Source: a virus. Taken from it: a stretch of DNA of 47,491 bases. The position numbers and the translations under genes are program-made. This document shows, one piece after another, positions 11,833-45,624 of the stretch (position 1 is its first letter; every line of letters begins with the position of its first letter). Under the pieces are notes generated by a model. That model saw nothing but the letters and a program-made list of their open reading frames with translations. It searched no databases and was not told the DNA's origin. The stretch is taken from IMG/VR virus record IMGVR_UViG_3300037467_000655, positions 1 through 47,491 of that record; one strand, given 5' to 3'.

Positions 11833-13284
11833 GTGGGCGGCATGATCGCCCTTCCGCAGCGGTTTCTCTCCCAGCCGCAGTATCAGGTTCCGGTAGCGCA
11901 GCGGTTCCAGGCTTTCTCGCCGAAGATAGCCGTGCTCCCCGCCTCTGCCGTAAACATAACCAATGGCAAGTCAATATCGTTTGCCAATGACGCAACCCGG
12001 AAGGGCGGGAATTTCTACTTCCCGGGCGCAAATGGTTATGTCGATCTAGGCTCTGATGCATTCGTAGGATCGACAAATTTCTCGTTTGTCGTTGTATCGA
12101 AACTCGATTCGTTCCCAGGTTCTTTCCCTGTCGTCCTCGGCCTTAAGACCACTGCTGGCACGAATCTGGCCGCGTTCTACTCGAATAGTGCAGCCTACAT
12201 TGACTTCACTGTTGGGCAGAATGGCATAGGCGACCCGTTCTCGCTGACTCCGTTCGGCAGCGTTACCGGGACGTGGCACAGCTTCGTATACACGAATAAC
12301 GGAGCAGGGAAGCTGTTCTGCAACGGTGTACAAGCAACGAAAGGCGCCGCAAACTCACTGGCAGCATCAAGTGGGAATACCGTTTTAGGGCAGTCAAACC
12401 CAGGCAACCTTGCCAACGATTTCAATGGGTCGATAGCCTGTTTCGCGCTGTTCAATGGAGTACTTCCAGATGATTTAGCGCGGCAGGTATCCGCAAACCC
12501 TTGGCAGATATTCCAAGCCCCAGCAAGGCGAATTTGGGCATCCGACGCTTCCTCTGACGTAAGCGTCGGCTTAACCGGCCAATCGGCATCTTTAGCGCGA
12601 GGAACACTAGCTCCGTCAACAACGGTAGCGCTGACCGGGCGGAGTTTGACATCCGCTCAAGGCTCTGTAAAACCCGCTCTTAGTGTTTCCTTAACCGGGC
12701 AGGCGTTAACCAGTGCGAAGGGAGCGCTAGGTGTAAGCGCAAGTGTTGCTCTATCCGGGCAAGCCTTAGCATCAGCAAGAGGAACGCTATCCCCAGCAAC
12801 AAGCGTCGCCCTGTCAGGGCGAATCCTGGCAAGCGCTCAAGGTACTCTGAGCGTATCTGGAGCGGCGTCTGTCGCGCTCTCAGGGCAATCGCTGACATCG
12901 GCGCAAGGGACGCTAACACCGCTCGCAGCATCGAATGTCGCGTTAACCGGGCAGCAACTTAGCTCGGCACAGGGAACGCTTGGCCCCGGCAACTCAGTAG
13001 CGCTTTCGGGCCAGTATTTAACAAGCAATCAAGGATCGGTAAGCGCCGGGACAGCGGTAACACTGTCAGGACAGACAGCGACGCTAGCGCAAGGCAGTCT
13101 CGGAATAACCGGCGACAGATCGGTTCAGCTAACCGGTATTCAGTCATCGTTACTAATGGGTAGCCTAACGCCGTCTATCGGCGCGGTCTCTTCTTTAGTC
13201 GAGCGCACCGCGATATTTCATCAAATCGTTTCCCGCTCTACAAAATTCCAGCGCAGCAAGGCTGTCACTGTCAGGTTTAACTAA
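11833..13284 (+). CDS. LamG/concanavalin-like domain protein with C-terminal tandem repeats
   Basis: 483 aa. The N-terminal half, 'FSFVVVSKLD...TWHSFVYTNNGAGKLFCNGV...GSIACFALFNGVL', looks like a LamG jelly-roll. The C-terminal half holds about 10 repeats of V-x-L-[ST]-G-Q-x-L-x-S-A-x-G-[ST]-L. Confidence 0.65.
   Translation: MGGMIALPQRFLSQPQYQVPVAQRFQAFSPKIAVLPASAVNITNGKSISFANDATRKGGNFYFPGANGYVDLGSDAFVGSTNFSFVVVSKLDSFPGSFPVVLGLKTTAGTNLAAFYSNSAAYIDFTVGQNGIGDPFSLTPFGSVTGTWHSFVYTNNGAGKLFCNGVQATKGAANSLAASSGNTVLGQSNPGNLANDFNGSIACFALFNGVLPDDLARQVSANPWQIFQAPARRIWASDASSDVSVGLTGQSASLARGTLAPSTTVALTGRSLTSAQGSVKPALSVSLTGQALTSAKGALGVSASVALSGQALASARGTLSPATSVALSGRILASAQGTLSVSGAASVALSGQSLTSAQGTLTPLAASNVALTGQQLSSAQGTLGPGNSVALSGQYLTSNQGSVSAGTAVTLSGQTATLAQGSLGITGDRSVQLTGIQSSLLMGSLTPSIGAVSSLVERTAIFHQIVSRSTKFQRSKAVTVRFN
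12565..13173 (+). repeat. Coding tandem repeat array (about 10 units of 60-66 bp)
   Basis: Units include VGLTGQSASLARGTL, VALTGRSLTSAQGSV, VSLTGQALTSAKGAL, VALSGQALASARGTL and others. They are degenerate at the DNA level. Confidence 0.85.
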
Positions 13285-30161: not shown

Positions 30162-30180
30162 GGGCCAGAAATGGCCCTTT
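30162..30180 (+). other. GNRA-loop hairpin upstream of the protease gene
   Basis: GGGCCA-GAAA-TGGCCC followed by TTT. It overlaps the track's 30171 start, which favours ATG 30204. Confidence 0.5.
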
Positions 30181-30203
30181 CCAAAACAACAATAAGGATA
30201 AAA

Positions 30204-31925
30204 ATGCGTTTCCTGCTATTCGTGTTGATGTCCCTGATTCCGTCCATCAGCTATTCAGACAAGCCGGAGAGGTTTGCTCACGGGCGAGTTTTGTTCATGC
30301 CTCGGGGAGGTCTGCCAGCGCATGAGCTTCAAAAGATTATCAAGGCCAAGAAGATAGGCCAGAGTGATTTATACGTTGCCGAAGTAGAGCATGGCTCAGA
30401 AAAGTCAGTAGTGGCCCGGTTGTCTCACAATCCACATTTCAAGTTTGCTGAGTTGGATTTGATCATTGAGCCAGAAACAATCCCGAACGATCCATATTAT
30501 TTCAACGCATGGCACTTGCCCAAGATCGGCGCTGATGCTGCCTGGGATATGTCGCAAGGAGCGGGTGTGACCATCGCTATCCTTGATTCCGGCGCTGATC
30601 CTACTCATCCAGACTTATCAAGCCGATTAGTTCCGGGCTGGAATTTCTTCGACAACAACTCGAACACTGCCGATGTTCACGGACATGGCACGATAGTCGC
30701 TGGCACTGCCGCTGCGGCAAGCAATAATAGCGTTGGTGTGGCTGCTGTGTCCGGTCAATCCCGGATCCTGCCTATCCGCGTTACTGATCTGACTGGATCC
30801 GGATACACAAGCATGATAGCAAGCGGATTGATTTACGCAGCAGATCATGGGGCGAAGGTGGCAAATGTCAGCTTTGCAAACATGCCTTCAAGGTCTGCCG
30901 TAATTTCTGCCGCACAGTACATGAAGGACAAAGGCGGTCTGGTTGTCGTCGCAGCGGGGAATAGCGGGATTGACGAAGGCTTCACTCCTACAACGTCCCT
31001 GATTCCCGTCTCCGCTACAGACGGCAACGACATGAAAGCCTCATGGTCAAGCTATGGCAGCTACGTTGCTCTGTCTGCTCCTGGAGTTGGTATATGGAGC
31101 ACTGCGAACGGCAGCGGGTACGGCTCTTACTCAGGAACGTCAGTCGCAAGCCCCGTTGCTGCCGGAGTTGTTGCCCTAGTGTTTGCGGCGAATGCCTCTC
31201 TGAAGAATACCGATGTAGAGAAGCTGATTTACTCTACCGCTGTTGACCTTGGCGACATGGGCCGGGATATCTATTACGGCTATGGCCGGGTCAATGCGTA
31301 CGGGGCCGTATCTGCCGCAAGAACGGCAATATCCACTGTTGACACTCAAGCCCCATCGGTTTCTATCACGTCTCCTGCTGACGGCTCGACAGCCTCAGGG
31401 CTTGTTCCGGTCGATGTATCGGCTTCTGATAACGTCGGTGTGAGTAGGGTAGAACTACGAGCAAACGGCAATTCCGTTGCTATCGACTCATCGTCTCCCT
31501 TCGCTTTTACATGGGATTCAACTGGTTCTCCAAACGGCACAGCTAAGCTCGTTGCTTACGCCTATGACGCTGCTGGCAACTTTGCCGCATCCGCTCCTGT
31601 TTCCGTCAACGTTTCGAATACGGTCATTCTCAGGCAAAGCGACACAACGCCTCCGGTTATTAAGATCGTCAATCCCGTTGCGGGGAATGTCTCTGGAAAC
31701 GTTGCGATCAGCATAAGCGCAAGCGACGACAGCGGTGCGGCTGGAATCAAACTGTCTATTTACGTCGATGACGTCCTCAAGGCAAGCGGCGCAGGAAGCA
31801 CGCTAGGTTATAACTGGAACACGAAACCGAAGAATTTAAGCGGATTGCATACGGTGAAGGCTGTTGCAACGGACGCAACAGGGAATTCCTCCTCAACTTC
31901 GGTAACTGTCAACGTTGTTCGCTGA
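30204..31925 (+). CDS. Secreted subtilisin-family serine protease (peptidase S8) with I9-like propeptide and two C-terminal Ig-like domains
   Basis: The signal peptide is MRFLLFVLMSLIPSISYS. The catalytic triad motifs are 'AILDSGAD', 'HGHGTIVAGTAAA' and 'GTSVASPVAAGVVAL'. Two repeats of about 95 aa start 'DTQAPSVSITSP...' and 'DTTPPVIKIVNP...'. AAGGA lies 6 nt upstream of ATG 30204. Confidence 0.9.
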   Translation: MRFLLFVLMSLIPSISYSDKPERFAHGRVLFMPRGGLPAHELQKIIKAKKIGQSDLYVAEVEHGSEKSVVARLSHNPHFKFAELDLIIEPETIPNDPYYFNAWHLPKIGADAAWDMSQGAGVTIAILDSGADPTHPDLSSRLVPGWNFFDNNSNTADVHGHGTIVAGTAAAASNNSVGVAAVSGQSRILPIRVTDLTGSGYTSMIASGLIYAADHGAKVANVSFANMPSRSAVISAAQYMKDKGGLVVVAAGNSGIDEGFTPTTSLIPVSATDGNDMKASWSSYGSYVALSAPGVGIWSTANGSGYGSYSGTSVASPVAAGVVALVFAANASLKNTDVEKLIYSTAVDLGDMGRDIYYGYGRVNAYGAVSAARTAISTVDTQAPSVSITSPADGSTASGLVPVDVSASDNVGVSRVELRANGNSVAIDSSSPFAFTWDSTGSPNGTAKLVAYAYDAAGNFAASAPVSVNVSNTVILRQSDTTPPVIKIVNPVAGNVSGNVAISISASDDSGAAGIKLSIYVDDVLKASGAGSTLGYNWNTKPKNLSGLHTVKAVATDATGNSSSTSVTVNVVR

Positions 31926-32703: not shown

Positions 32704-33681
32704 TTACCGCAATTTCTTTGCTATGTCCTCAGCGCTTTCCCTGTAATAGACCTGAAGCATTCTTAAATCCTTGTGTCCTATCGCTCTAGCAAGGGCGTTA
32801 ATGTCCAGTTTAGACGCTAGTCTAGTTACGGCCTCAGCGCGTGAGTCGTGGAAGTGCAAGTCTTTGATAAGAGCCCTGTCCTTTGCTTTCCTGAACAACG
32901 CATCAATCTGTTGCGTCTTTAAACAAAATACAGAGTCCTCGTTCCGATCCAGGCTCTTAAGAATCTCTATCGCTTTTGGAGATAGAGGGACATCTCTATA
33001 TGCTGCCCGTGTCTTTCCAAAAGTTTTGAGGTAAGACTTATCCAAATACACTCTATCCCACGTCAGACCGGCAATCTCTCCAGCCCTCATTCCAGTCTCA
33101 ATAGCAAAGAGAAAAGCTGCTCCAACTCTTGCTGATATCGTTGACGGAGTATTTCCGTCATAGCCCAGGATGTACAGTAGCGTATCTATTTCTTTCTCGT
33201 TGATGCGTCTGTCGCGCGATTGTGGGGCCTCTGGGCGCTTGACTCCCTTCATTGGATGCTTGGGTAGCCACTTCCACTCATCAACTGCTGTAGAGCACGC
33301 AGCAGATAGTATGTTCCATTCACGTCTTACACTTGCTGCCGAGACTGACTTGAGCCTTCTATCGCGCCATCCTGCAATGTGCGGCTGATCCAGCTCAACC
33401 AGCTTTACATTCGCTATCTCATCCTCTAGTAACAAGTTAATCCGCGTCTTTTCCCACTTCTCGCCGCGTTTCTTGCTGCTAACCTCATCCCTGTAACGTT
33501 CCATTAACGCCCGAAAGGTAATATCAGGAACGCCGCTTGCTTTGCCTGCTACAATTAGAGCCTCAGTGTCTGCTGCCCATTTAGCGGCCTGTGTTTTGGA
33601 GTCGAAAGTAGCGTGTTTCTCTACCCCTAGTTTTCGAATCTCGACATACCAGCCCTTACCCCTCTTCCTGATATACGCCAT
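32704..33681 (-). CDS. int: Tyrosine integrase
   Basis: 325 aa. It has an N-terminal SAM-like domain, 'ETGMRAGEIAGLTWDRV', 'HFHDSRAEAVTRL' and 'GHKDLRMLQVYY' (R..H-x-x-R..Y). Confidence 0.9.
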   Translation of the reverse strand: MAYIRKRGKGWYVEIRKLGVEKHATFDSKTQAAKWAADTEALIVAGKASGVPDITFRALMERYRDEVSSKKRGEKWEKTRINLLLEDEIANVKLVELDQPHIAGWRDRRLKSVSAASVRREWNILSAACSTAVDEWKWLPKHPMKGVKRPEAPQSRDRRINEKEIDTLLYILGYDGNTPSTISARVGAAFLFAIETGMRAGEIAGLTWDRVYLDKSYLKTFGKTRAAYRDVPLSPKAIEILKSLDRNEDSVFCLKTQQIDALFRKAKDRALIKDLHFHDSRAEAVTRLASKLDINALARAIGHKDLRMLQVYYRESAEDIAKKLR

Positions 33682-35926: not shown

Positions 35927-36276
35927 GACGGCTCCTTGTGCTTGGCGAGGAGGGCTACCGCTCTGTTACCGAGTTCGTTCGTGTATTTGCCATGCGCAAG
36001 TTCACGCAACACGTCCAAAGCCTCGTCGCGCTCTTGCGTAAGCTGCCTGTTCTTGACTGCAACGGAAGTAACCATACAAAGAACGTCTCCTTCTTCCTCA
36101 ATCCTCCCTGTGGCGCATCCCTCAAACGCATTCCAGCAAGCGACTAGACGGCGGGCGTTGGCCTTTATCTCTTCGTCGCTTTTCCATACACCAATAACAT
36201 CAGCGACTAAGTAACCCTCTTCGTCAATAATAGAGTTATCGTCGTCTACGACAAGCCTTCCTTCCGTATGGCTCAT
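35923..36276 (-). CDS. Hypothetical protein (117 aa)
   Basis: 'MSHTEGRL...ANARRLVACWNAFEG' is a pattern common in small phage early proteins. ATG 36276 overlaps the upstream TGA. Confidence 0.45.
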   Translation of the reverse strand: MSHTEGRLVVDDDNSIIDEEGYLVADVIGVWKSDEEIKANARRLVACWNAFEGCATGRIEEEGDVLCMVTSVAVKNRQLTQERDEALDVLRELAHGKYTNELGNRAVALLAKHKEPS

Positions 36277-36785
36277 TTTCCACTCCACAAGACAGGCTGC
36301 AGGGAGTAGGGCAAGTAAAGCGGGTGCGCCGGGCTCCCGTCAGAGTTGAGTTTCAGGTAATGGATTTTCTCGGGCGAATGACGCTGAATGAGTTTCCTGA
36401 TCAGATTGCCGGCAGTTAGATAAGCCCCATGTGTTCCCCAGGCACAAATCGCCATGGCGCAATCCTGTACGGCATCTACAATGGCATCCACATTCCCCGG
36501 GCCAACAGGATCATCAGCCTCATAAAGCGCCTTTGGATCTGTAGACCTCAGTGCGAAGAGATTGACCACTTCCAATCCGCCATACCCCAGCATTTCCGCA
36601 CGTTTCTTGCATCGTGATACCGTTGGATCGAGCGCATTCTCATCAGCCGTAGAAGGATTGAGCATGACGAAACACGCCTTGGGCTTTGTCTCATCCCACA
36701 CTCGCCATAGCCGGTATCGGTAGCGCTCGCAGTCCGAAAAGACCGCGCCAGCGGAAGCGATACCGCGTTCAATCGTGCCGCTCAT
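36273..36785 (-). CDS. DUF1643 domain protein
   Basis: 170 aa from ATG 36785. 'CERYRYRLWRVW...ACFVMLNPSTADENALDPTVSRC...VVNLFALRSTDP'. Confidence 0.7.
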   Translation of the reverse strand: MSGTIERGIASAGAVFSDCERYRYRLWRVWDETKPKACFVMLNPSTADENALDPTVSRCKKRAEMLGYGGLEVVNLFALRSTDPKALYEADDPVGPGNVDAIVDAVQDCAMAICAWGTHGAYLTAGNLIRKLIQRHSPEKIHYLKLNSDGSPAHPLYLPYSLQPVLWSGK

Positions 36786-37075
36786 GCCTGAATACCCCTC
36801 TCTTCCTTTATCTGTTTCCACCAGTCATAGACGGTTCCTGCGCTAACTCCCAACGCCTTGCCAACTTTTACGTTGCTCAGCCCCTCTGACTTCATTTGGA
36901 TAATCTTGTCCGCAACAGCCTTAATTCGCTCCCTTGCCTGGGTCTTGTTGGCAGGTTCCGGGCGAGCAACAGTCTCCTGCCTCATGCATCCTTGTAAGTC
37001 TCTAAGCAGAGTGGTGAGGTATATGACCGGATGCCATGTGTAAGCTCCTGTCTCTATTGTTGGGTAGTCGCTCAT
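36782..37075 (-). CDS. HTH DNA-binding protein
   Basis: 97 aa. The C-terminal 'EGLSNVKVGKALGVSAGTVYDWWKQ' is a helix-turn-helix. Confidence 0.5.
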   Translation of the reverse strand: MSDYPTIETGAYTWHPVIYLTTLLRDLQGCMRQETVARPEPANKTQARERIKAVADKIIQMKSEGLSNVKVGKALGVSAGTVYDWWKQIKEERGIQA

Positions 37076-39359: not shown

Positions 39360-39686
39360 TCAGGCAGACTCTGAGGGTATTTCTACTTCTTGCCATTCGG
39401 TGTGAATCCACTCCATGAACCCCGGCCATCTTTCTACCTGCTCTGGATCAGGCCCATGTGTTACATTGCATATAGAAGCAAAAACGTGCTTTTCACCGCG
39501 CATAGCCGCCACCCGATACCGCACCTTTACTAGCTCAGGCTTGACGCGGTATGCGCAGCCAGTAACCCATTCAGGCTTATCAATATCAAGCCACAATCCA
39601 TCGTCTGCTTGAACCTGAACGACTTTCCCGTCAGCCCAAGCCTTAATCACTTCTGCATGCTTGTGTGGTTTACGTTCGTTACTCAC
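39360..39686 (-). CDS. Hypothetical protein (108 aa)
   Basis: 'HKHAEVIKAWADGKVVQV...YRVKP' is a recurrent phage motif. Confidence 0.45.
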   Translation of the reverse strand: MSNERKPHKHAEVIKAWADGKVVQVQADDGLWLDIDKPEWVTGCAYRVKPELVKVRYRVAAMRGEKHVFASICNVTHGPDPEQVERWPGFMEWIHTEWQEVEIPSESA

Positions 39687-39945
39687 CGTTCGCCCTCCTG
39701 AATTTTTCAGCAGCCATGTCTATCGCATCGCGCAGAGTGTTCTCTTTCGTTCTCTGGCCTAGCAGATCGTAGATAACGAATTTGCTGCTCGTGGTACTTG
39801 TGGAGCGCTGGTAATGCGATTTATCCAGGTCGCAATGCTCGCCTAGCCAGTCCAAGCGCTCCGTGTCGGTCAATTTTTGCGGCACAGGACGGCGCTCGAT
39901 TAACGCGGTCTGCTCATACCAGCGAAGGGATTCTAGGGCGCTCAT
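39679..39945 (-). CDS. Hypothetical protein (88 aa)
   Basis: Coupled ORF. Confidence 0.4.
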   Translation of the reverse strand: MSALESLRWYEQTALIERRPVPQKLTDTERLDWLGEHCDLDKSHYQRSTSTTSSKFVIYDLLGQRTKENTLRDAIDMAAEKFRRANGE

Positions 39946-40124
39946 GATTGCTCTTCCTTGTAGAAGAGTTCGACAGGGTTATATGGAGCGAACGTCCTGA
40001 ATGCTGATTTTTCCAAACCGCTTGCTACCTCATCTGCCCTGTCGAATGTCTTAAAGTGCATACCCCAAACAGGGCATCCATCTTTATCAACTATCCCCCA
40101 TCCGTAACTTTTCATCCCTTCCAT
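39942..40124 (-). CDS. Hypothetical protein (60 aa from ATG 40124; track ORF extends to 40253)
   Basis: A strong AGGAGGGG SD lies 3 nt upstream of ATG 40124 (MEGMKSYGWGIVDKDG...). The upstream in-frame extension has only a TTG or weak ATG start. Confidence 0.45.
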   Translation of the reverse strand: MEGMKSYGWGIVDKDGCPVWGMHFKTFDRADEVASGLEKSAFRTFAPYNPVELFYKEEQS

Positions 40125-40385
40125 ATTCCCCTCCTGTGATAACTGGTAGAGCGCGGCACGTGCTGATCTCGTGCTTTCCTCTGTTCTGCGGCGTAAGGCA
40201 ACTCCACCCAAGGCGTGGTCAGCTCCCGACATTTGCCCCGCATACATCGCCAATCAGCCTTGGCAATTCCCCGCTCATACGGCTGGTTACTGAATAGACC
40301 CACCAAGTTCAGACGCTACTCTGATACTCCCGGCAGCTACCGGGCCACCTAATGGATATTCCCCTTCAATAACCATGCGTATGAG

Positions 40386-40399
40386 GCCGGTTTCCCGGC
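40386..40399 (-). other. Hairpin GCCGG-GAAA-CCGGC (minus-strand RNA), copy 2
   Basis: A 5-bp GC stem with a GNRA tetraloop, 7 nt downstream of the 34-aa ORF stop. Confidence 0.5.
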
Positions 40400-40405
40400 G
40401 CTCTG

Positions 40406-40510
40406 TTACTCTTCCTCTCCCGTTCCGCACTTGATGAACATCCCCGCAAGCAGTCCTACAGGAGCGGATAAAACAATCCAAAATGCGAATATCCATTCAA
40501 GCAGAGTCAT
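40406..40510 (-). CDS. Mini membrane protein (34 aa, below track cutoff), first ORF after the PL-like promoter
   Basis: GGAGG lies 5 nt upstream. The product is MTLLEWIFAFWIVLSAPVGLLAGMFIKCGTGEEE. Confidence 0.45.
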   Translation of the reverse strand: MTLLEWIFAFWIVLSAPVGLLAGMFIKCGTGEEE

Positions 40511-40532
40511 GATTCCTCCATCTTGTTTTAAT

Positions 40533-40548
40533 GCCGGTCTTTCCCGGC
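40533..40548 (-). other. Hairpin GCCGG-GAAAGA-CCGGC (minus-strand RNA), copy 1; boxB-like
   Basis: It has the same stem as copy 2 and sits in the 5' leader about 120 nt downstream of the promoter. The loop resembles lambda nutL boxB (GAAGA). Confidence 0.45.
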
Positions 40549-40664
40549 TGTCATCCTTGCTTAAGGGAACCCGGAGTGCTCCATTTAAGGAACTCGTGGC
40601 TTTTAACGAGGCCAAGCCCTCGAAGCGTTGCTGCTCTTCGTGCCGTTTTGTGCGGCATGGGAGA

Positions 40665-40693
40665 ACTATAGCAAAGCTATACGCTAAATGCAA
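40665..40693 (-). promoter_or_regulatory. PL-like early-left promoter
   Basis: The minus strand reads TTGCAT (40693-40688), a 17-nt spacer, then TATAGT (40670-40665). Two operator-like palindromes overlap it. Confidence 0.7.
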
Positions 40694-40708
40694 TAGCTCT
40701 GCTACAGT
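40665..40708. promoter_or_regulatory. OL-like operators (2 sites)
   Basis: ACTATAGCAAAGCTATACG (40665-83) and GCAATAGCTCTGCTACAGT (40690-708). The core is TAGC-N3-GCTA and the centres are 25 bp apart. Confidence 0.65.
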
Positions 40709-40738
40709 TTTCTGCTACAATACGGTTTCGATGAGCAA

Positions 40739-40763
40739 CAAAAAACCCGCTCGGGGCGGGTTT
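40739..40763 (-). terminator. Intrinsic terminator ending the repressor operon
   Basis: The minus strand reads AAACCCGC-CCCGA-GCGGGTTT followed by a T run, so T7 overall. An A/T run on each side makes it potentially bidirectional. Confidence 0.8.
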
Positions 40764-40834
40764 AATTGATTAGAGAAAAGGAGGGTAGGTGGAAACGGAA
40801 TTACCAAGCGGGCAACACGGCGTGCCTATGAAGA

Positions 40835-41080
40835 TTAATGCCGGTGACCTGGCTGAGCTGGAGTCGCGGAGTTATCAAGTTTCTCAAGTGCCTTCTGTAT
40901 ATCGCCTATCAAGTCACGTGCTTGTTGAGGCGTTAGTGCGTAATGGCGGCTCGGCTGAGCCTCTTCCATTGATTGCATCGAATGAGAAAGGAAGCGCGGA
41001 CGAAAAATAACAAGATTCAAGGGTAGCACTGGGCCGATCAGCCATTCGGTGACCGGGAACAAAGGTATTTCATCAGACAT
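40835..41080 (-). CDS. BssS-like small protein (candidate biofilm/regulatory factor)
   Basis: 81 aa from ATG 41080. 'FPVTEWLIGPV...LTPQQARDLIGDIQKALEKLD...GHRH' follows the layout I recall for E. coli BssS/YceP ('HPLVGWDIS...LTTDVARQFISILEAGIAKIE...YRRH'). Confidence 0.4.
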   Translation of the reverse strand: MSDEIPLFPVTEWLIGPVLPLNLVIFRPRFLSHSMQSMEEAQPSRHYALTPQQARDLIGDIQKALEKLDNSATPAQPGHRH

Positions 41081-41137
41081 AGGAGTCCCTCTTGTTATGG
41101 TTGATGTGGAAATCAAATCTTAACATGTAGGGATTCC

Positions 41138-41452
41138 TTATTTTTCCCCTCCCCATAACTTCCCAAAGTCAGGCGCACTCTTATCAGGTATCTTTTCCCC
41201 CTTCAGTTGCGCCAGCTCCTGTTCTAAGGCCAGGACTTTTTTCTCCAATTCAGATCGTTCGCCCTCAAGCCTTATAGCCCATTCGCGGGCCTGTAGCGCT
41301 TCCTCAGATATTTTGGTGGCCTTGGTGTGGAGGATTGACCGCTTCTCTACTGTGTAAAGATTCTCTGAGATCCGGCCAATCTGATTGAGATGAGTGATGA
41401 TCTTGTGAAGCGAGGAGATAGGCATTAAGACTGAGCGGAGCAGGGGGATCAA
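41138..41452 (-). CDS. Hypothetical coiled-coil protein (104 aa; TTG start, or 95 aa from ATG 41425)
   Basis: TTGA overlap with the upstream gene. 'ERSELEKKVLALEQELAQLKGE' forms heptads. Confidence 0.4.
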   Translation of the reverse strand: MIPLLRSVLMPISSLHKIITHLNQIGRISENLYTVEKRSILHTKATKISEEALQAREWAIRLEGERSELEKKVLALEQELAQLKGEKIPDKSAPDFGKLWGGEK

Positions 41453-41964
41453 TCCAAATCCAGGCCAAGCTTAGGAGAATAATTCCCTATGCTCTTGCCT
41501 GTTCTGCTGTCTTTAAATATCACAAGAGATAACTGCGAATTTCCGCCCATTTTGTAGTAGTCATACACCACCGCGGCGAGATTCTGTTTCATATCAAAGT
41601 CCATTTGGTAGAACGCTTGCTTGACCCAGACGTGAGGGTAATCTCCGGGAGTCGTGATTTTCTGAATAACTTCATACTTAATGGCATCTTCGATAAATTT
41701 CTTGCGAACCACCTGTTTTTGTTCCGTTTGTTTTTCTCTCTGTTTCTGTGGGTCATCGTATGTTTTAGCCACCTCAGCTTCTTTAGGTATTTTTATCCCT
41801 AGCTTTTGCGTAAGTTCATCGAAGCACGCTAAACGCTTCAAGCCGGTAGGGGCGGCTGCACACTTTGCTATCTCGTCTTTTGTATCAGCAAAGGCTTGTG
41901 CGCTAACAATGAAAAGCAGTGAAACCAAGAGCGCTGGCTTAATGATCATGTAAGCGTCTATCAT
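41449..41964 (-). CDS. Secreted/periplasmic hypothetical protein (171 aa)
   Basis: The signal peptide is 'MIIKPALLVSLLFIVSAQAFA|DT'. A Cys pair occurs in 'KCAAAPTGLKRLAC'. ATGA overlap with the upstream ORF. The segment is AT-richer. Confidence 0.55.
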   Translation of the reverse strand: MIDAYMIIKPALLVSLLFIVSAQAFADTKDEIAKCAAAPTGLKRLACFDELTQKLGIKIPKEAEVAKTYDDPQKQREKQTEQKQVVRKKFIEDAIKYEVIQKITTPGDYPHVWVKQAFYQMDFDMKQNLAAVVYDYYKMGGNSQLSLVIFKDSRTGKSIGNYSPKLGLDLD

Positions 41965-42206
41965 TTCTCTCTTCCGACTGCACGTAGCACCATTCGATAG
42001 AGCAGGATTGCTACCGTCCCCACCGCAAAGGTTTTACTTTCATACAAAAGCCCGGTTGCCACCGTCCCAAACCCCTTGTCCTTCGTGGTGAAAGTTGCCG
42101 CCCCTCCAGTTATTTCACCAGCCCTGGCCCGCGCGGCGAGAGTTTCAAAAGCCTCGACCGTATCATGAGAAATAGTTTCGCGAACAAAAGTAAATGGCTT
42201 AGTCAT
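41961..42206 (-). CDS. Hypothetical protein (81 aa) translationally coupled to the repressor
   Basis: The ATG lies inside the last codons of the repressor gene (8-nt overlap). The C-terminal segment 'FAVGTVAILLYRMVL' is hydrophobic. Confidence 0.45.
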   Translation of the reverse strand: MTKPFTFVRETISHDTVEAFETLAARARAGEITGGAATFTTKDKGFGTVATGLLYESKTFAVGTVAILLYRMVLRAVGREK

Positions 42207-42744
42207 TTCCTTTTTTTCTCCTTTGGAGTTGCCCCATATCTTCTATGGGCGGGTGGTTGTGGAACCTAGTGTCATGGGGATCAGGTGGAATATCAGGGCC
42301 AAGTCTGCGCTCTGGATTGTGTCCAATATCTTTCTTGCGGCGTTCTACTGGTCGTCTAGAAAGCAGCGCGCCCATATTCAATAAAACCTTGTTTGCATCT
42401 TTGTCTAGGTTCGCCATGAACGCGAGCATCTGCTCTTGTTCTTTTGTAAGAGCTTGATATTCCGCTTTTGGCTCTTCGACTGTTAAACGAACATCCCCTG
42501 TCAGGGAGAGGGCCTGGTGGGCTTCCATTGCTAGCCTTGGACTGATCTCCTCAAGCGGGCAGTCAAAACCTCGCGCATAGGCTTGCGCTGCTTCAATGCT
42601 TATCGGGCGCCTTCCAGTGATGTGCTGGTAAATCATCGACTGCCCGCCTTTCACCTTGAAATCCCTCGCAAAAGCTGCCCTGTTGACGCCCTGAAATCGC
42701 GCCGCCAACCGTTTTGCCTCTTCCTCGATAGTCCACATTTTCAT
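42199..42744 (-). CDS. XRE-family (CI-like) repressor without a recognisable S24 autocleavage domain
   Basis: 181 aa from ATG 42744. The HTH is 'FARDFKVKGGQSMIYQHITGRRPISIEAAQAYARGF'. The C-terminal half shows no Ser/Lys peptidase motifs. The track start at 42849 would run through the operators. Confidence 0.7.
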   Translation of the reverse strand: MKMWTIEEEAKRLAARFQGVNRAAFARDFKVKGGQSMIYQHITGRRPISIEAAQAYARGFDCPLEEISPRLAMEAHQALSLTGDVRLTVEEPKAEYQALTKEQEQMLAFMANLDKDANKVLLNMGALLSRRPVERRKKDIGHNPERRLGPDIPPDPHDTRFHNHPPIEDMGQLQRRKKGND

Positions 42745-42810
42745 ATGTAGCAATGCTATCGGCAAAAAACTGTAGCGTGGCTTGCTTTTTAACTGTAGCG
42801 GTGCTATAGT
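42744..42810. promoter_or_regulatory. OR-like operators (3 sites)
   Basis: TATGTAGCAATGCTATCGG (42744-62), ACTGTAGCGTGGCTTGCTT (42769-87) and ACTGTAGCGGTGCTATAGT (42792-810). The centres are 25 and 23 bp apart. Confidence 0.7.
42782..42810 (+). promoter_or_regulatory. PR-like early-right promoter
   Basis: TTGCTT (42782-87), a 17-nt spacer, then TATAGT (42805-10). Operator sites 2 and 3 overlap it. Confidence 0.65.
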
Positions 42811-42838
42811 TTGCACATCTTGATAACCATTTCCTGCT

Positions 42839-43084
42839 ATGGAAAGCATATTTGAACCTGTTAAGCGAGCTTGCGATGCGGTTGGAGGTCAGGCTGCGCT
42901 AGCGCGTTCCGTCGATGTTCCGCCAGCGTTTGTATACCAATGGATAAATAAAAAGCGTCCAGTTCCTGTTGGTCGTTGCATGGCTATTGAGAAAGCAACG
43001 AGCGGCAAAGTAACCAGAAGCGAGCTTCGCCCCGACGACTGGCACCTGATCTGGCCCGAACTGAAGCGCAAAAAAGCTGCGTAA
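42839..43084 (+). CDS. cro: Cro/YdaS-like HTH regulator
   Basis: 81 aa. 'ACDAVGGQAALARSVDVPPAFVYQWINKKRPVPVGRCMAIEKATSGKVTRSELRPD'. It is divergent from the repressor. Confidence 0.7.
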   Translation: MESIFEPVKRACDAVGGQAALARSVDVPPAFVYQWINKKRPVPVGRCMAIEKATSGKVTRSELRPDDWHLIWPELKRKKAA

Positions 43085-43094
43085 CTCCCCCTTC

Positions 43095-43385
43095 ATGCAA
43101 AGAAAAAGAAAAGAGAAGTTCGACAACCGTCGCCGGGTTGACTTCAACGATACGCAAGCTGACTTCTGCGACTCGAAATCCGATGAGCTTGGTCTGTCTT
43201 TCATGGCGTACATACGCAAATTGGTTAATGAAGAAATGGCACGTGATAAGGAATTATCACAGCCTTCAGAGCAAGGAAATACGTCCATTTCGGGGCAAAA
43301 CCGGACTAGTCCAGATGGACTATTAACGGCTGAACAAGTCGCGCAAGTTATCGGCGCTGCCATGAAGTGGAGAGGTGATAAGTAG
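43095..43385 (+). CDS. Hypothetical protein, possible ribbon-helix-helix DNA binder
   Basis: 96 aa. It has a basic N-terminus and 'VDFNDTQADFCDSKSDELGLSFMAYIRKLV', which is RHH/MobC-like. Confidence 0.35.
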   Translation: MQRKRKEKFDNRRRVDFNDTQADFCDSKSDELGLSFMAYIRKLVNEEMARDKELSQPSEQGNTSISGQNRTSPDGLLTAEQVAQVIGAAMKWRGDK

Positions 43386-43444
43386 TTCATGAGCGGCATT
43401 TTGAAGCAGCTCAGCAATACAAACAACATTTGTTGGAGGCAGGA

Positions 43445-43891
43445 ATGAATGTACTGGATGCAGCGCAGGACATAGGTAAAGACTATCCGGGCGGAATTGA
43501 GTCTCTTTATCCGAGACTCAATATGAAATCCTCTGCTCTCTTAAGAGCAAAGCTGAACCCGAACTGCGATACCAATCACCTTACTCTGAAAGAGTCCGTC
43601 GATATTCAACAGAAGTCCGGTCTGCACTACATCCTTTTTGCGATGGCTACCGAACTCGGGTATGCGGCTCCGATACCACTTCCAGACATTCACTCCAAAA
43701 ATGTCCCGCAAGGGATCAGCAAGATGTGTGCTGAATTTGGTGATTATCTCCGCACGGTAGATGAGGTTTTCGATGACGGGAAAGTTACTCCCAACGAAGC
43801 GAAATCTCTGCAAAAGGAATTAACACAAATGATCGCTGCCGCAGTTCGGCTCCAGTCGATATTGACCGGGAAGGGCGGTAATGAACCCTAA
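43445..43891 (+). CDS. CII-like regulatory protein (Phage_CP76-like)
   Basis: 148 aa from ATG 43445, with GGAGG 5 nt upstream. 'LLRAKLNPNCDTNHLTLKESVDIQQKSG...ILFAMATELGY...DDGKVTPNEAKSLQKE'. Confidence 0.55.
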   Translation: MNVLDAAQDIGKDYPGGIESLYPRLNMKSSALLRAKLNPNCDTNHLTLKESVDIQQKSGLHYILFAMATELGYAAPIPLPDIHSKNVPQGISKMCAEFGDYLRTVDEVFDDGKVTPNEAKSLQKELTQMIAAAVRLQSILTGKGGNEP

Positions 43892-43994
43892 ATTCAAGGC
43901 TTCCATGAAAGCTGCTCAGCGTATCAAGACGGCAGCGAACAAGAGAAGGGCGGTTTTGTACTGGTGCAAGGCTATTAAGAAGGCGCTCTCTTGA
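43881..43994 (+). CDS. Small basic protein (37 aa, below track cutoff)
   Basis: The product is MNPKFKASMKAAQRIKTAANKRRAVLYWCKAIKKALS. It bridges the CII-like and O-like genes with overlaps at both ends. Confidence 0.25.
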   Translation: MNPKFKASMKAAQRIKTAANKRRAVLYWCKAIKKALS

Positions 43995-44707
43995 GTATCG
44001 ACGCTATCTCCTGGGCATTCAAACAGGAAATTAAACCGTCATCCTTAAAGTTCGTGCTTGTCGCCTTGGCGGACAACGCTACAGCAGACGGTATGGCGTG
44101 GCCATCGATAAAGGCTTTGTGTGAAAAGACGAGTCAAGACAGAAAAACGGTAATCGCGTCTTTGGATAAGTTGGAAGAAATGGGAATTATCTCTGATAGC
44201 GGCAAGAGGACAGGGGCAACTGGGCAGGTGAAAGTCTACCGTTTTAACAGTACCGAAAACGGAACAGTACCGAAAACGGAACAGTACCGAATTTCCCATG
44301 AAACAGTACCGTTTTTCCGTGGTAACAGTACCGAAAACGGTACACGGAACCTTAAAGGAACCATAAAGGAACCTACTAGTAATACTGACGTATTACTTGT
44401 CGCTGATAGCGACCCTCCGAAATGCCCGCATCAAGAAATCATAAACCTGTATCACCGAATCCTCCCTGCTTGCCCTCGAATTAGAGACTGGACAGCAACA
44501 CGAGCCAAGGCGTTAAAGGCTCGTTGGTGCGAGAACAAAGAACATCAGTCCCTTGCTTACTGGGAAGCATTGTTCCGGTACATCGCTAGATGCCCGTTCC
44601 TTGTCGGGAAGTCTGGTGCGCGACCGTTCTTTGCTTCCCTTGACTGGATTTGCAAGGCAGAGAACTTCGCGAAGATACGCGAAGGCAGGTATGAGGAGGT
44701 GGCGTGA
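43991..44707 (+). CDS. Replication initiator (lambda O-like, N-terminal winged-helix)
   Basis: 238 aa. 'ISWAFKQEIKPSSLKFVLVALADNATADGMAWPSIKALCEKTSQDRKTVIASLDKLEEMGII'. Iterons lie inside the gene. Confidence 0.75.
   Translation: MSIDAISWAFKQEIKPSSLKFVLVALADNATADGMAWPSIKALCEKTSQDRKTVIASLDKLEEMGIISDSGKRTGATGQVKVYRFNSTENGTVPKTEQYRISHETVPFFRGNSTENGTRNLKGTIKEPTSNTDVLLVADSDPPKCPHQEIINLYHRILPACPRIRDWTATRAKALKARWCENKEHQSLAYWEALFRYIARCPFLVGKSGARPFFASLDWICKAENFAKIREGRYEEVA
44246..44343. repeat. Origin iterons: five copies of AACAGTACCG(AAAACGG)
   Basis: Copies start at 44246, 44263, 44280, 44302 and 44324. The first three are exactly 17 bp apart. The last forms the palindrome GTACCGAAAACGGTAC. Confidence 0.8.
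44346..44397. repeat. Phased GGAACC triplet (11-bp period) plus an 8-bp inverted repeat
   Basis: GGAACC occurs at 44346, 44357 and 44368. AGTAATAC-TGAC-GTATTACT spans 44378-44397. Confidence 0.7.
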
Positions 44708-45624
44708 ATAAAGTGTTCTTTGGCGACTGCCAAGAATCAATGCGGCAAATGATAGCTGATGGCGTAAAGGTTCAGATGGCTGTAACGAGTCCGCCTTACT
44801 TCGGACTGCGTGATTATGGACATCCTGGGCAACTGGGGCTTGAAGCAACTCCGCAAGAGTACGTCAGCAACCTGGTTGAAGTATTTCGTTTGGTCAGAGA
44901 ACTGCTGAATAAAGACGGAACGCTATGGCTGAATCTTGGGGATAGCTACGCTGCAAATCGTGGCTATCAAGTGGCCAGCACGCTAATTAATGGGCAAGCA
45001 ACGAATGAGGCTCAAGCCGCTGGAGGGAAGGGCAGCAAAGTACCAGACGGACTCAAACCAAAGGACTTGATCGGTATTCCTTGGCACGTAGCCTTCGCTC
45101 TGCAAGCAGACGGATGGTTTTTGCGTCAAGACATTATATGGGCCAAACCCAACCCCATGCCTGAGAGCGTTACAGACCGATGCACCAAATCACATGAGTA
45201 CATGTTCCTGCTGAGCAAGAGCGAGCGGTACTACTTCGACCATGAGGCGATAAAGGAGCCAGCCGTTATAGGCAACAAGCCGCGTAACTTTGGCCCGCAG
45301 GACAAGGACGGCGGCAGAGACGACGGCAACAAGCGTGATAACTATATTTGCGACGGAACCCGCAACCGCCGAAGCGTGTGGGAAGTGGCAACACAACCAT
45401 ACTCCGGCGCTCACTTCGCAACATTCCCTCCAGCTTTAATCGAGCCTTGCATTGCTGCCGGATCACGCCCAGGGGATGTTGTTCTTGATCCGTTCTTTGG
45501 ATCAGGCACAACCGGGCAGGTATGTGAGTCGCTAGGGCGGAAGTGGATCGGGTGTGAAGTCAATGACGCATACCTGCCGCTTCAGAAGAAGCGTACAGCA
45601 CAAATGGGGATAGCGTTCGCATGA
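44704..45624 (+). CDS. DNA methyltransferase (N6_N4_Mtase family, SPPY type)
   Basis: 306 aa. 'MAVTSPPYFGLRDYG', 'DIIWAKPNPMPES' and 'VLDPFFGSGTTGQV'. Confidence 0.85.
   Translation: MNKVFFGDCQESMRQMIADGVKVQMAVTSPPYFGLRDYGHPGQLGLEATPQEYVSNLVEVFRLVRELLNKDGTLWLNLGDSYAANRGYQVASTLINGQATNEAQAAGGKGSKVPDGLKPKDLIGIPWHVAFALQADGWFLRQDIIWAKPNPMPESVTDRCTKSHEYMFLLSKSERYYFDHEAIKEPAVIGNKPRNFGPQDKDGGRDDGNKRDNYICDGTRNRRSVWEVATQPYSGAHFATFPPALIEPCIAAGSRPGDVVLDPFFGSGTTGQVCESLGRKWIGCEVNDAYLPLQKKRTAQMGIAFA

What the first reader, a model, noticed from the sequence alone, without database searches (positions are those of the whole stretch)
40835..42206. Four-gene cassette in the rexAB slot of the immunity region
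Seen:
- The repressor gene (42199..42744) is followed on the same strand by four ORFs.
- The first is 81 aa with a hydrophobic C-terminus, the second 171 aa with a cleavable signal peptide, the third about 100 aa with coiled-coil sequence, and the fourth 81 aa.
- The first three are chained to the repressor and to each other by overlapping stop/start codons (8 nt, ATGA, TTGA).
- The unit ends at a strong terminator (40739-40763), which is immediately followed by the PL-like promoter and its operators.
- Four 60-nt lines I counted in 41461-41700 gave 35-50% G+C, against about 55% in one sampled capsid-gene line.

Established: in lambda this exact slot (between cI and OL/PL, co-transcribed with cI in lysogens) holds the rexA/rexB exclusion system.

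Inference: this is a lysogen-expressed exclusion, abortive-infection or conversion module. I cannot assign it to any named defence family. Only the last ORF looks BssS-like, and that rests on my memory of the E. coli sequence.
Basis: partly seen in the sequence, partly recalled or inferred. Interest (0 to 1): 0.75.

Follow-up and report, generated by a model that had tools for sequence, protein, structure and literature searches.

The report
Composite lysogeny operon behind phage repressor
The four genes behind this phage's repressor are real and probably made in lysogens, but they are three separately mobile modules rather than one defence system, and the first belongs to a large unstudied protein family that sits directly after CI-type repressors in every related prophage inspected.

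Summary
Four same-strand ORFs follow a CI-like repressor, with 8-nt, ATGA and TTGA overlaps, and end at an intrinsic terminator just before OL/PL. ORF4 is a BssS-family protein (Pfam E 1e-18). No ORF matches a PADLOC defence model.

The "four-gene cassette" reading is only partly right. Related loci split it into three modules.

- **ORF1** (81 aa) belongs to a family of at least 934 clusters with no Pfam, PHROG or PDB match. It follows a Cro/CI-type repressor in every locus inspected. In 46 of 49 IMG/VR loci an upstream gene ends within 40 nt of its start, usually with a 4-nt overlap. The genes downstream vary. ORF1 is therefore part of the immunity core, not cargo.
- **ORF2+ORF3** is a low-GC two-gene insert: a probably exported two-cysteine protein plus a coiled-coil protein. 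The pair recurs in the same slot in one other phage.
- **ORF4** carries its own 65-nt leader that folds into a hairpin burying its ribosome-binding site. Related phages share this leader and the terminator while the gene between them differs.

Function is inferred only: lysogen-expressed envelope or host-modulating genes. The architecture is well supported. The mechanism is not.

The parts
42199..42744 (-). CI-like repressor, 181 aa from the ATG at 42744: N-terminal HTH and a basic low-complexity C-terminal tail, with no S24 peptidase domain. Gene callers extend it to 42849 (216 aa), but that extension would cover the OR operators.
   Evidence: Weak HTH_3 and PHROG regulator hits. It is divergent from a cro-like gene with shared operators between them. 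Its N-terminus aligns with the homologous repressors.
42745..42810 (.). OR region. Operators lie at 42745-42761 and 42793-42809. The PR-like TTGCTT-17-TATAGT (42782-42810, + strand) was read by eye. The repressor ATG abuts an operator with no Shine-Dalgarno sequence, so its mRNA may be leaderless as for lambda PRM (inference).
42839..43084 (+). cro-like gene
   Evidence: Pfam YdaS_toxin E 1e-25 and P22_Cro E 1.7e-8.
41961..42206 (-). ORF1, 81 aa. It is a member of a large uncharacterised family that directly follows CI-type repressor genes. Its start overlaps the repressor stop by 8 nt.
   Evidence: 934 clusters at E<=1e-3, none with a Pfam domain among the 120 listed. No PHROG match for 120 members. 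Synteny. The AF2 model has pLDDT 87.9. No PDB fold match.
41449..41964 (-). ORF2, 171 aa. It has a Sec-type signal-like N-terminus, a conserved C-x12-C (KC...RLACFD) motif, a charged linker and a widespread uncharacterised C-terminal domain of about 90 aa. It is the one low-GC gene in the region.
   Evidence: Exhaustive phmmer gave 483 representatives at E<=1e-3, mostly matching residues ~80-171. Alignment. The C-terminal domain has no Pfam match; the VasI N-terminal hit is below cut-off. GC. A homologue occupies the same slot in L043.
41138..41452 (-). ORF3, 104 aa (95 aa if it starts at the ATG at 41425). Coiled-coil protein with no signal peptide or transmembrane segment. Its start overlaps the ORF2 stop (TTGA).
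   Evidence: Homologues lie in the post-repressor slot of L025/L028, L043 and L092. Only sub-threshold coiled-coil Pfam hits.
41078..41142 (-). Conserved 65-nt leader of ORF4. It is a three-tier hairpin: P1 GGAAUCCC/GGGACUCC covers the Shine-Dalgarno sequence, P2 is UGUUA/UAACA, and P3 is UUGAU/AUCAA with loop UUCCAC. An alternative reading is an extended -10 promoter, TGnTAAGAT.
   Evidence: Found upstream of different genes in 11 distinct related sequences. Every variant folds the same way, z -1.5 to -4.4. Compensatory changes occur in P1 and P2. No Rfam match.
40835..41080 (-). ORF4, 81 aa, BssS-family protein
   Evidence: Pfam PF13991 E 1.1e-18, above cut-off. PHROG 10846 E 1e-14. The NCBIfam BssS equivalog scores 17.8 bits against a cut-off of 125.
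40735..40763 (-). Intrinsic terminator that closes the operon. It is 97% identical to the terminator closing the equivalent cassette in L025.
40665..40707 (.). OL operators (40666-40682 and 40691-40707), with a PL-like TTGCAT-17-TATAGT on the minus strand (40693..40665) read by eye

Best explanation
**What it is.** This is the repressor-side (PRM-type) operon of a lambdoid temperate phage of a Nitrosospira-like betaproteobacterium. It was built by mosaic assembly from three independent modules.

**How it is read (inferred).** In a lysogen, transcription starting at the repressor gene would run through ORF1, ORF2, ORF3 and ORF4 to the terminator at 40763..40743. Overlapping stop and start codons would pass ribosomes from the repressor into ORF1, ORF2 and ORF3.

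**Module A, ORF1.** This is a core gene of the immunity region, not cargo. It directly follows CI-type repressors of unrelated specificity and is made in a fixed ratio with them. It stays 77-93% identical while the repressor diverges to 19-33%. Its target is therefore most likely something constant, such as a host factor or a conserved component of incoming phages, rather than the repressor's specificity domain.

**Module B, ORF2+ORF3.** This is a horizontally acquired two-gene insert. ORF2 is probably exported to the periplasm, and I infer that its two conserved cysteines form a disulfide. I infer that it acts at the envelope, as a superinfection-exclusion or conversion function. ORF3 is a cytoplasmic coiled-coil partner of unknown role.

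**Module C, ORF4.** This is a BssS-family gene in a portable cassette. The cassette has a conserved leader hairpin that buries its ribosome-binding site, plus a shared terminator. ORF4 translation would therefore be gated separately from the rest of the operon.

**Shown:** the gene order, overlaps, terminator, operators, family memberships, synteny and module boundaries. **Inferred:** transcription in lysogens, export of ORF2, all protein functions and the regulatory role of the hairpin.
For: **Anatomy.**. The phage context is an integrase, a YqaJ recombinase, CII-, O- and DnaB-like genes.

**ORF1 is core**
- The repressor-ORF1 order holds in all 15 or more individually inspected loci, with repressors of tail-type HTH, Phage_CI_repr, HTH_3/31 and S24 kinds.
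- In the IMG/VR census, 46 of 49 complete loci have an upstream same-strand ORF ending within 40 nt of the ORF1 start, mostly with a 4-nt overlap. Thirty of the 46 hit HTH_3, with further HTH_31, HTH_19 and Phage_CI_repr hits.
- Nucleotide homology to four related phages runs from about 20 nt upstream of ORF1 to its stop codon (41958..42226). It is 73-80% at nucleotide level against 81-91% at protein level. In a fifth, L004, it extends about 100 nt into the repressor tail (to 42303, 73%).
- The protein is real: AF2 pLDDT 87.9 from a 120-sequence alignment.

**ORF2+ORF3 are a module**
- L043 has repressor, ORF1 homologue, ORF2 homologue (40% identity) and ORF3 homologue with the same TTGA junction, then a terminator and no BssS gene.
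- ORF2's G+C is in the lowest 0.2% of the window.
- By a crude rule, 14 of the 46 genes found directly downstream of ORF1 homologues start with a signal-peptide-, transmembrane- or lipoprotein-like N-terminus, as does the window's ORF2. Individually inspected examples include PEP-CTERM, Adhesin_E-like and DUF4124 proteins.

**ORF4 is a cassette**
- Against L025, only the leader (92% over 65 nt) and the terminator (97% over 33 nt) are conserved, with a different gene between them.
- The leader precedes BssS-like genes and unrelated genes of 73, 84, 120 and 165 aa.
- BssS-like genes also lie beside the repressor or cro genes of Salmonella phage F1055 and phage Ssp-JY37.
Against: - There is no expression or phenotype evidence of any kind.
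- The promoter scan found no sigma-70 consensus site in 40300-43500. The PR, PL and PRM assignments are by eye.
- ORF2 export rests on reading the N-terminus and on two conserved cysteines, not on a predictor.
- Only about a third of genes in the ORF1-downstream slot look exported, so an envelope function is a tendency and not a rule. Other phages carry HicAB-like or cytoplasmic genes there.
- ORF1's constancy could reflect recent recombination rather than a constant target.
- A remote ORF1 relative sits in a lytic Pseudomonas phage that has no repressor. This argues against any repressor-specific role, but it does not say what the role is.
- The leader could be a DNA-level promoter, since TGnTAAGAT is retained in every variant, rather than an RNA switch.
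Confidence: 0.6

Rival explanations
1. ORF1 is an accessory part of the lysis-lysogeny switch itself. It could be a cofactor, a stabiliser, or a signal-responsive inactivator or proteolysis adaptor of repressors that cannot cleave themselves. The analogy is the ImmR-ImmA arrangement, where a repressor is co-transcribed with the factor that inactivates it.
For: - Tight translational coupling to the repressor is nearly universal.
- Of 46 partner repressors, 43 lack a Peptidase_S24 hit. The window's repressor lacks one too.
- The window has no LexA box near any early gene. The single hit, at 13063, is at chance level. No antirepressor domain was seen, so the induction route is unexplained.
- Partner repressors tend to carry basic, low-complexity C-terminal tails: 8.5 K+R per 40 aa against 5.2 elsewhere. 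In three Nitrosospira-type phages the tail motif ERRLGPxIPPDxHDT is conserved next to ORF1.
Against: - ORF1 does not co-vary with repressor specificity: 77-93% identity against 19-33%.
- It also follows S24-type repressors.
- No tail motif is universal. The pattern [ED][RK][RK] occurs in 23 of 46 tails, and the last residues are partly dictated by ORF1's own Shine-Dalgarno sequence.
- A remote relative occurs in a lytic phage without a repressor.
- ORF1 has no protease or DNA-binding signature and no PDB fold match.
Confidence: 0.25
2. The four ORFs form one four-component defence, abortive-infection or exclusion system that replaces rexAB.
For: The position and strand match rexAB. The genes are chained by overlaps and share one terminator. 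In L025 the same slot holds a two-transmembrane protein plus an ORF3 homologue, which loosely recalls a membrane effector with a cytoplasmic partner.
Against: - The components occur independently. ORF1 is found with dozens of different downstream genes. ORF2+ORF3 occur without ORF4. ORF3 occurs without ORF2. ORF4's flanks surround other genes.
- No PADLOC model matches at E below 0.004. The only hit is a coiled-coil artefact to PbeC.
- Only ORF2 is compositionally foreign.
Confidence: 0.07
3. The element upstream of ORF4 is a DNA-level moron promoter rather than an RNA switch. It would be an extended -10 site, TGnTAAGAT, possibly with an operator at the TTGAT-N6-ATCAA repeat. ORF4 would then be an autonomously transcribed moron in the classic promoter-gene-terminator form.
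For: - TGnTA..(A/G)T is retained in all 11 variants, including the divergent L064 (TGGTAGAGT).
- The 26-nt core is far more conserved than base-pairing alone would require.
- In L011, L013 and L064 the element with its gene sits alone between cro and cII on the opposite strand, where it would need its own promoter.
- The gene is followed by its own terminator.
Against: - The outer stem shows compensatory double changes between arms about 45 nt apart: GGGAAUUCC/GGAAUUCCC against GGAGAUUCC/GGAACCUCC and GGGAACCCC/GGGAUUCCC. P2 changes from UGAUA/UAUCA to UGUUA/UAACA. This is expected for RNA pairing and not for protein-binding sites.
- Every variant folds to the same hairpin.
- A transcript starting about 7 nt after TAAGAT would still contain P3 and the 3' arms, so the two readings do not exclude each other.
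Confidence: 0.35

Closest known systems
Lambda rexA-rexB (genes between cI and OL/PL, co-transcribed with cI from PRM); established knowledge
   Same: The genes occupy the same slot, strand and operon logic: after the repressor and before a terminator and OL/PL.
   Different: None of the four proteins matched any PADLOC defence model above noise, and none had a Pfam or PHROG hit to a Rex protein. No four-transmembrane RexB-like protein or ~280-aa RexA-like protein is present. The region is a composite of three modules rather than a two-gene system.
Exported or lipoprotein superinfection-exclusion genes placed next to prophage repressors: Ltp of S. thermophilus TP-J34 (PMC3952083), P22 SieA (PMC10883804), and K139 Glo (from my own knowledge)
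   Same: ORF2 is a small protein that looks exported and lies downstream of the repressor. About a third of the genes in this slot in related phages have signal-peptide or lipobox N-termini.
   Different: ORF2 shows no sequence or family relationship to them. It is not a lipoprotein, since no cysteine follows the signal. Its C-terminal domain belongs to a widespread uncharacterised bacterial family. No exclusion phenotype has been tested.
E. coli BssS (YceP), Pfam PF13991
   Same: ORF4 matches the family model over 66 of 72 positions at E 1.1e-18.
   Different: It scores far below the NCBIfam equivalog cut-off (17.8 against 125 bits), so it is a distant paralogue and not an orthologue. It is phage-borne and preceded by a conserved leader hairpin. 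The biofilm role is an annotation of the E. coli protein and was not tested here.
Morons of lambdoid phages: promoter, gene and terminator units with deviant composition (concept reviewed in PMC7067206)
   Same: ORF2 has deviant G+C. ORF4 has its own 5' element and terminator. Both occur sporadically among related phages.
   Different: The ORF4 cassette keeps conserved flanks while the gene between them is swapped. Its 5' element looks like an RNA hairpin that sequesters the ribosome-binding site, rather than (or as well as) a promoter.
ImmR-ImmA of ICEBs1 and Gram-positive phages: a repressor co-transcribed with its anti-repressor protease (my own knowledge)
   Same: A small gene sits directly after and is co-expressed with an HTH repressor that mostly lacks an S24 domain.
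   Different: ORF1 is 81 aa with no HEXXH or other protease motif. It has no homology to ImmA/IrrE and also follows S24 repressors. No interaction has been shown.

Membership tests
BssS family (Pfam PF13991), for ORF4 | Scores above the Pfam gathering threshold over most of the model | tested here: met
   67.6 bits against a cut-off of 27, E 1.1e-18, model positions 1-66 of 72.
BssS equivalog (NCBIfam NF008958, the E. coli biofilm regulator BssS), for ORF4 | Scores above the curated equivalog cut-off | tested here: not met
   17.8 bits against a cut-off of 125. ORF4 is a family member, not an orthologue.
BssS, for ORF4 | Affects biofilm formation or indole and AI-2 related gene expression | not testable with these tools
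   Needs expression or deletion in a host.
RexAB-type exclusion system | Homology to RexA or RexB | tested here: inconclusive
   No PADLOC hit above noise for any of the five proteins, and no Pfam or PHROG hit to Rex proteins. I did not confirm that these libraries contain RexA/RexB models, and no direct comparison with RexA or RexB sequences was run.
RexAB-type exclusion system | Located between the repressor gene and OL/PL on the repressor strand | tested here: met
Any defence system in PADLOC-DB v2 | Significant match of at least one protein to a system model | tested here: not met
   The best hit is ORF3 against PbeC at E 0.0044, covering a coiled-coil segment only. Slot genes from related loci were also negative.
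VasI (type VI secretion-associated, PF11319 / TIGR03360), for ORF2 | Scores above cut-off over the whole domain | tested here: not met
   19.1 bits against 26.5, covering only the N-terminal 57 of 184 model positions, which is the Cys...RLxCFD motif.
Sec-exported periplasmic protein, for ORF2 | Cleavable signal peptide and extracytoplasmic location | tested here: inconclusive
   The N-terminus is MIDAYMIIKPALLVSLLFIVSAQAFA|DT. A crude rule calls it signal-like. Two cysteines are conserved in full-length homologues. No dedicated predictor or experiment was available.
Moron (autonomous promoter-gene-terminator insert), for ORF4 | Own promoter, own terminator and sporadic distribution | tested here: inconclusive
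   The terminator and sporadic distribution are met. A promoter is only suggested by a conserved TGnTAAGAT and was not detected by the scan.
Cro/CI-type phage repressor, for the gene upstream of ORF1 | HTH domain, divergent cro-like gene and shared operators at two sites | tested here: met
   The HTH_3 hit is weak (E 0.024), but homologues hit HTH_3 and Phage_CI_repr.
Known RNA families (Rfam 15), for the ORF4 leader | Match to a covariance model | tested here: not met
   There is no hit at the leader. The only sub-threshold hits in 39500-44500 lie elsewhere.

The most novel reading that the evidence does not exclude
ORF1 defines a new and widespread class of small protein that is an obligate, translationally coupled second component of CI-type immunity switches in betaproteobacterial prophages. 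It could be the missing induction sensor or adaptor for repressors that lack a self-cleavage domain. Separately, the ORF4 leader may be a new cis-regulatory RNA that gates translation of interchangeable accessory genes in these phages.
Probability: 0.25. Interest if true: 0.7.

Novelty: new variant of a known kind. Interest (0 to 1): 0.45.

Why it matters
Accessory genes expressed next to prophage repressors are a known source of phage-exclusion and host-conversion functions. Three points here could be of wider use.

- **ORF1 family.** It has at least 934 clusters and is absent from Pfam, PHROGs, PADLOC and the PDB. It is a positional marker of the immunity core in betaproteobacterial prophages, including those of ammonia oxidisers. 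Its fixed coupling to repressors that mostly lack an S24 domain makes the question of how these prophages are induced or protected directly testable.
- **Slot after ORF1.** It is a hotspot for swapping exported proteins and lipoproteins, which makes it a natural place to look for new superinfection-exclusion genes.
- **ORF4 leader and terminator.** They bracket interchangeable genes. This suggests a cassette-like route for exchanging accessory genes, with a shared translational control.

None of this is yet backed by experiment.

Tried and rejected
- **Near-identity DNA searches.** The locus found nothing in the phage and E. coli collections. The first 25 kb matched only a 49-nt tape-measure stretch.
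- **ORF2 word-index protein search.** It found only itself. The exhaustive search was needed.
- **IMG/VR scans with ORF3 and ORF4 as single proteins.** Nothing found.
- **First AF2 model of ORF1.** With 12 close sequences it was poor, pLDDT 57, and was discarded in favour of the 120-sequence model.
- **Fold and structure searches for ORF1.** Foldseek against the PDB gave no meaningful match (best E 0.4, TM below 0.3). The MADS-box hits at the top were rejected as noise. PDB sequence searches with the ORF1, ORF2 and ORF4 queries found nothing.
- **tblastn of ORF1 relatives.** Nothing below E 0.005 against cultured phages or plasmids. The Vibrio nrdD hits were rejected as chance.
- **Shared repressor tail motif as a docking site for ORF1.** It is not universal.
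- **LexA-box search for an SOS-controlled antirepressor.** One chance-level hit inside the structural genes.
- **Sigma-70 promoter scan.** Nothing in the immunity region.
- **Folding the leader with extra flanks.** This gave an insignificant z of -0.93. Folding the element alone gave -1.5 to -4.4.
- **BLASTP of ORF3 against the L043 homologue.** No alignment, although the multiple alignment and an HMM show clear homology.
Full report
**Context**

The window is a 47.5-kb lambdoid temperate phage or prophage contig. It carries structural genes, an integrase (32704-33681, minus strand), a YqaJ recombinase and an immunity region. It also carries CII-like (Phage_CP76), O-like (HTH_36), methylase and DnaB genes. 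It has no close DNA relative among cultured phages or E. coli genomes. Protein relatives point to Nitrosospira-type betaproteobacteria.

**Checking the observation**

On the minus strand the repressor (42199..42744) is followed by ORF1, ORF2, ORF3 and ORF4.

| Gene | Coordinates | Length |
|---|---|---|
| ORF1 | 41961..42206 | 81 aa |
| ORF2 | 41449..41964 | 171 aa |
| ORF3 | 41138..41452 | 104 aa from TTG |
| ORF4 | 40835..41080 | 81 aa |

- The junctions are ATGACTAA (8-nt overlap), ATGA and TTGA, exactly as described.
- The terminator scan finds an 8-bp stem with a T run at 40763..40743.
- Operators of the form CTRTAGCNNNGCTAYAG, with at most 2 mismatches, occur only at 40666-40707 and 42745-42809. 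These sites bracket the repressor operon as OL and OR.
- By eye, PL is TTGCAT-17-TATAGT on the minus strand (40693..40665). PR is TTGCTT-17-TATAGT on the plus strand (42782..42810). The consensus scan did not call either site.
Only ORF2 is unusual, at 0.434. That places it in the lowest 0.2% of same-length windows, against 0.517 overall.
- ORF4 is a BssS-family protein by Pfam, E 1.1e-18. It lies far below the NCBIfam equivalog cut-off.
- PADLOC gives nothing.

**ORF1 belongs to the immunity core**

ORF1 has 77-93% identical homologues in a Nitrosospira sp. Nl5 prophage and in metagenomes.

- **Gene order.** In every locus, a cro-like gene is divergent from a repressor, and the repressor is directly followed by the ORF1 homologue. 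The genes after that differ: HicAB-like, Adhesin_E-like and others.
- **Repressor divergence.** The repressors are only 19-33% identical to the window's.
- **Family size.** A profile search found 934 clusters at E<=1e-3. All are named "hypothetical". Those listed are 74-100 aa with no Pfam domain. None of 120 members hits a PHROG.
- **More distant members.** Members in Variovorax, Nitrosovibrio, N. multiformis and metagenomes show the same synteny. This holds even where the repressor is S24-type or Phage_CI_repr-type.
- **Census of 50 IMG/VR loci.** In 46 of 49 complete cases a same-strand upstream ORF ends within 40 nt of the ORF1 start, most with an exact 4-nt overlap. Thirty of those 46 hit HTH_3, with further HTH_31, HTH_19 and Phage_CI_repr hits. 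Only 3 hit Peptidase_S24.
- **Boundaries.** In four related phages, nucleotide homology runs from about 20 nt upstream of ORF1 to its stop codon (41958..42226). In a fifth, L004, it extends about 100 nt into the repressor tail (to 42303). In all five it ends at or just before the ORF1 stop codon. That is the signature of a conserved module with a recombination joint where ORF2 begins.
- **Structure.** With a 120-sequence alignment AlphaFold gives a confident model, pLDDT 87.9. It is helix, beta-hairpin, long helix.
- **Fold matches.** There is no fold match in the PDB. The only matches are uncharacterised 77-87-aa phage proteins in BFVD.
- **A remote relative.** One BFVD match lies in the early, DNA-metabolism region of a lytic Pseudomonas phage. 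It aligns at 30% identity but lacks the SHD motif.
- **C-terminus.** It is an amphipathic helix, not a conserved membrane anchor.

**ORF2+ORF3 form a two-gene insert**

- **ORF2 relatives.** ORF2 has no relatives by the word-index search. Exhaustive phmmer found 483 representatives.
- **Shared domain.** Most share only the C-terminal ~90-aa domain. That domain usually follows a signal peptide or a zinc-ribbon-plus-transmembrane anchor. It is absent from Pfam and the PDB.
- **Full-length relatives.** A few full-length relatives keep the N-terminal KC...RLACFD two-cysteine motif. That motif explains the sub-threshold VasI hit.
- **L043.** One full-length relative, P0017 at 40% identity, lies in L043 in the same order: cro, repressor, ORF1 homologue, ORF2 homologue, ORF3 homologue. 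It has the same GLDLD*/TTGA junction. It is followed by a terminator and no BssS gene.
- **ORF3 elsewhere.** ORF3 homologues also occur after a two-transmembrane protein in the N. multiformis-type prophage L025. One occurs directly after the ORF1 homologue in L092.
- **Distribution.** Across all fetched loci the ORF2 and ORF3 families are sporadic.

**ORF4 sits in a portable cassette**

- **The leader.** The 57-nt gap between ORF3 and ORF4 is filled by a conserved element. An exact 18- or 19-mer from it was found in IMG/VR and metagenome contigs.
- **Genes it precedes.** In 11 distinct sequences it directly precedes three different BssS-like genes and unrelated genes of 73, 83-84, 119-120 and 165 aa.
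- **Conserved flanks.** Against L025, only this leader (92% over 65 nt) and the terminator (97% over 33 nt) are conserved, with a different gene between them.
- **Fold.** Every variant folds on its own into the same three-tier hairpin, and the outer stem pairs with the Shine-Dalgarno sequence (z -1.5 to -4.4).
- **Covariation.** The outer stem and the middle stem both show compensatory double changes.
- **Rfam.** No family matches.
- **Alternative reading.** A conserved TGnTAAGAT could also be an extended -10 promoter, and the two readings are compatible. In L011, L013 and L064 the element with its gene sits between cro and cII on the repressor strand.
- **BssS-like genes elsewhere.** They also lie near the repressor or cro genes of Salmonella phage F1055 and phage Ssp-JY37.

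**How it most likely works**

*Shown:* the gene order, overlaps, terminator, operators, module boundaries and family assignments.

*Inferred:*
- A PRM-type transcript, possibly leaderless since an operator abuts the repressor ATG and no Shine-Dalgarno sequence is present, runs through all four ORFs to the terminator.
- Translational coupling sets ORF1, and probably ORF2 and ORF3, in proportion to the repressor.
- The hairpin gates ORF4 separately.
- ORF2 is exported and acts at the envelope. This fits the slot's tendency to carry exported proteins and lipoproteins. A crude rule finds 14 of 46 such neighbours, and more are seen by eye.
- ORF1 acts on a constant target, because it does not co-vary with repressor specificity.

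The main rival for ORF1 is a switch-accessory role, as an induction sensor or adaptor. The scarcity of S24 domains among partner repressors favours it. So does the absence of a LexA box or antirepressor in the window. The lack of co-variation and the lytic-phage relative argue against it.

The single four-component defence system reading is disfavoured, because the parts are found independently of one another.

**Novelty and verdict**

Accessory genes downstream of a prophage repressor are a known kind of feature. Examples are lambda rexAB and the Ltp- and Sie-type genes (PMC3952083, PMC10883804). The moron concept is reviewed in PMC7067206.

Three things are new here. The first is an uncharacterised, very widespread small gene coupled to the repressor. 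The second is a recurrent ORF2/ORF3 insert built on an unannotated extracytoplasmic domain. The third is a conserved leader hairpin and terminator that bracket interchangeable genes.

Interest is moderate. The architecture is solid. Every functional statement remains inference.

Noticed in passing
window 41078-41142 (minus strand); also L011 3858-3920, L013 3923-3985, L014 7428-7490, L019 10912-10977, L021 932-996, L023 5418-5480, L024 592-654, L025 5754-5814, L034 2107-2169, L036 611-676, L064 762-828: A conserved ~65-nt element lies directly upstream of different small accessory genes in Nitrosospira-type phages. It folds as a three-tier hairpin that pairs with the Shine-Dalgarno sequence, shows compensatory changes and has an invariant apical sequence UAAGAUUUGAUUUCCACAUCAA. 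It has no Rfam match. It might also be an extended -10 promoter.
   Followed up: partly
L025 5063-5530 (also L028/L029 4376-4843): In the N. multiformis-type prophage the slot after the ORF1 homologue holds a 155-aa protein with two predicted membrane helices, overlapped by an ORF3 homologue. It has no Pfam or PADLOC hit. A membrane protein with a coiled-coil partner is worth testing as an exclusion or abortive-infection pair.
   Followed up: partly
window 42199-42744 and the whole window: The repressor has no S24 self-cleavage domain. No LexA box lies near any early gene and no antirepressor domain was seen. How this prophage is induced is unexplained. The same applies to 43 of 46 related repressors.
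   Followed up: partly
L032 3459-3698 (Pseudomonas phage YMC11/06/C171_PPU_BP, gene C171_00330): A remote relative of ORF1 (30% identity in the alignment, Foldseek probability 1.0) sits in the early, DNA-metabolism region of a lytic Autographiviridae phage, downstream of the DNA polymerase gene and just upstream of an endonuclease VII gene. The fold is therefore not restricted to repressor neighbourhoods.
   Followed up: partly
window 30171-31925 (+): A 584-aa subtilase (Peptidase_S8, E 1.5e-45) with Big_7 Ig-like domains is encoded after the tail genes and before the integrase. This is unusual cargo, or possibly a tail-associated enzyme.
   Followed up: no
window 43095-43385 (+); L011 3918-4280, L013 3947-4228 and L064 826-1185: The gap between cro and cII is a second variable slot. 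The window has a 96-aa ORF with no family on the cro strand. Related phages instead carry a leader-element gene (BssS-like, or a 119-120-aa family) on the opposite, repressor strand, where its transcript would run antisense to cro.
   Followed up: partly
window 40406-40510 (minus strand): The first ORF with a good Shine-Dalgarno sequence downstream of the PL-like promoter encodes a 34-aa hydrophobic peptide, MTLLEWIFAFWIVLSAPVGLLAGMFIKCGTGEEE. It follows an untranslated leader of about 150 nt that contains small hairpins. This was read by eye only.
   Followed up: no
L094 2989-3240 (Salmonella phage F1055) and L095 3001-3249 (phage Ssp-JY37): BssS-like genes annotated as hypothetical lie within about 0.5-1 kb of the repressor or cro genes in these cultured phages. 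BssS-family genes may be recurrent cargo of phage immunity regions.
   Followed up: partly
window 36273-36821 (minus strand) and 44704-45624 (+): A DUF1643 protein (E 3.5e-43) is encoded in the early-left operon. An N6/N4 DNA methylase lies between the O-like and DnaB-like replication genes.
   Followed up: no
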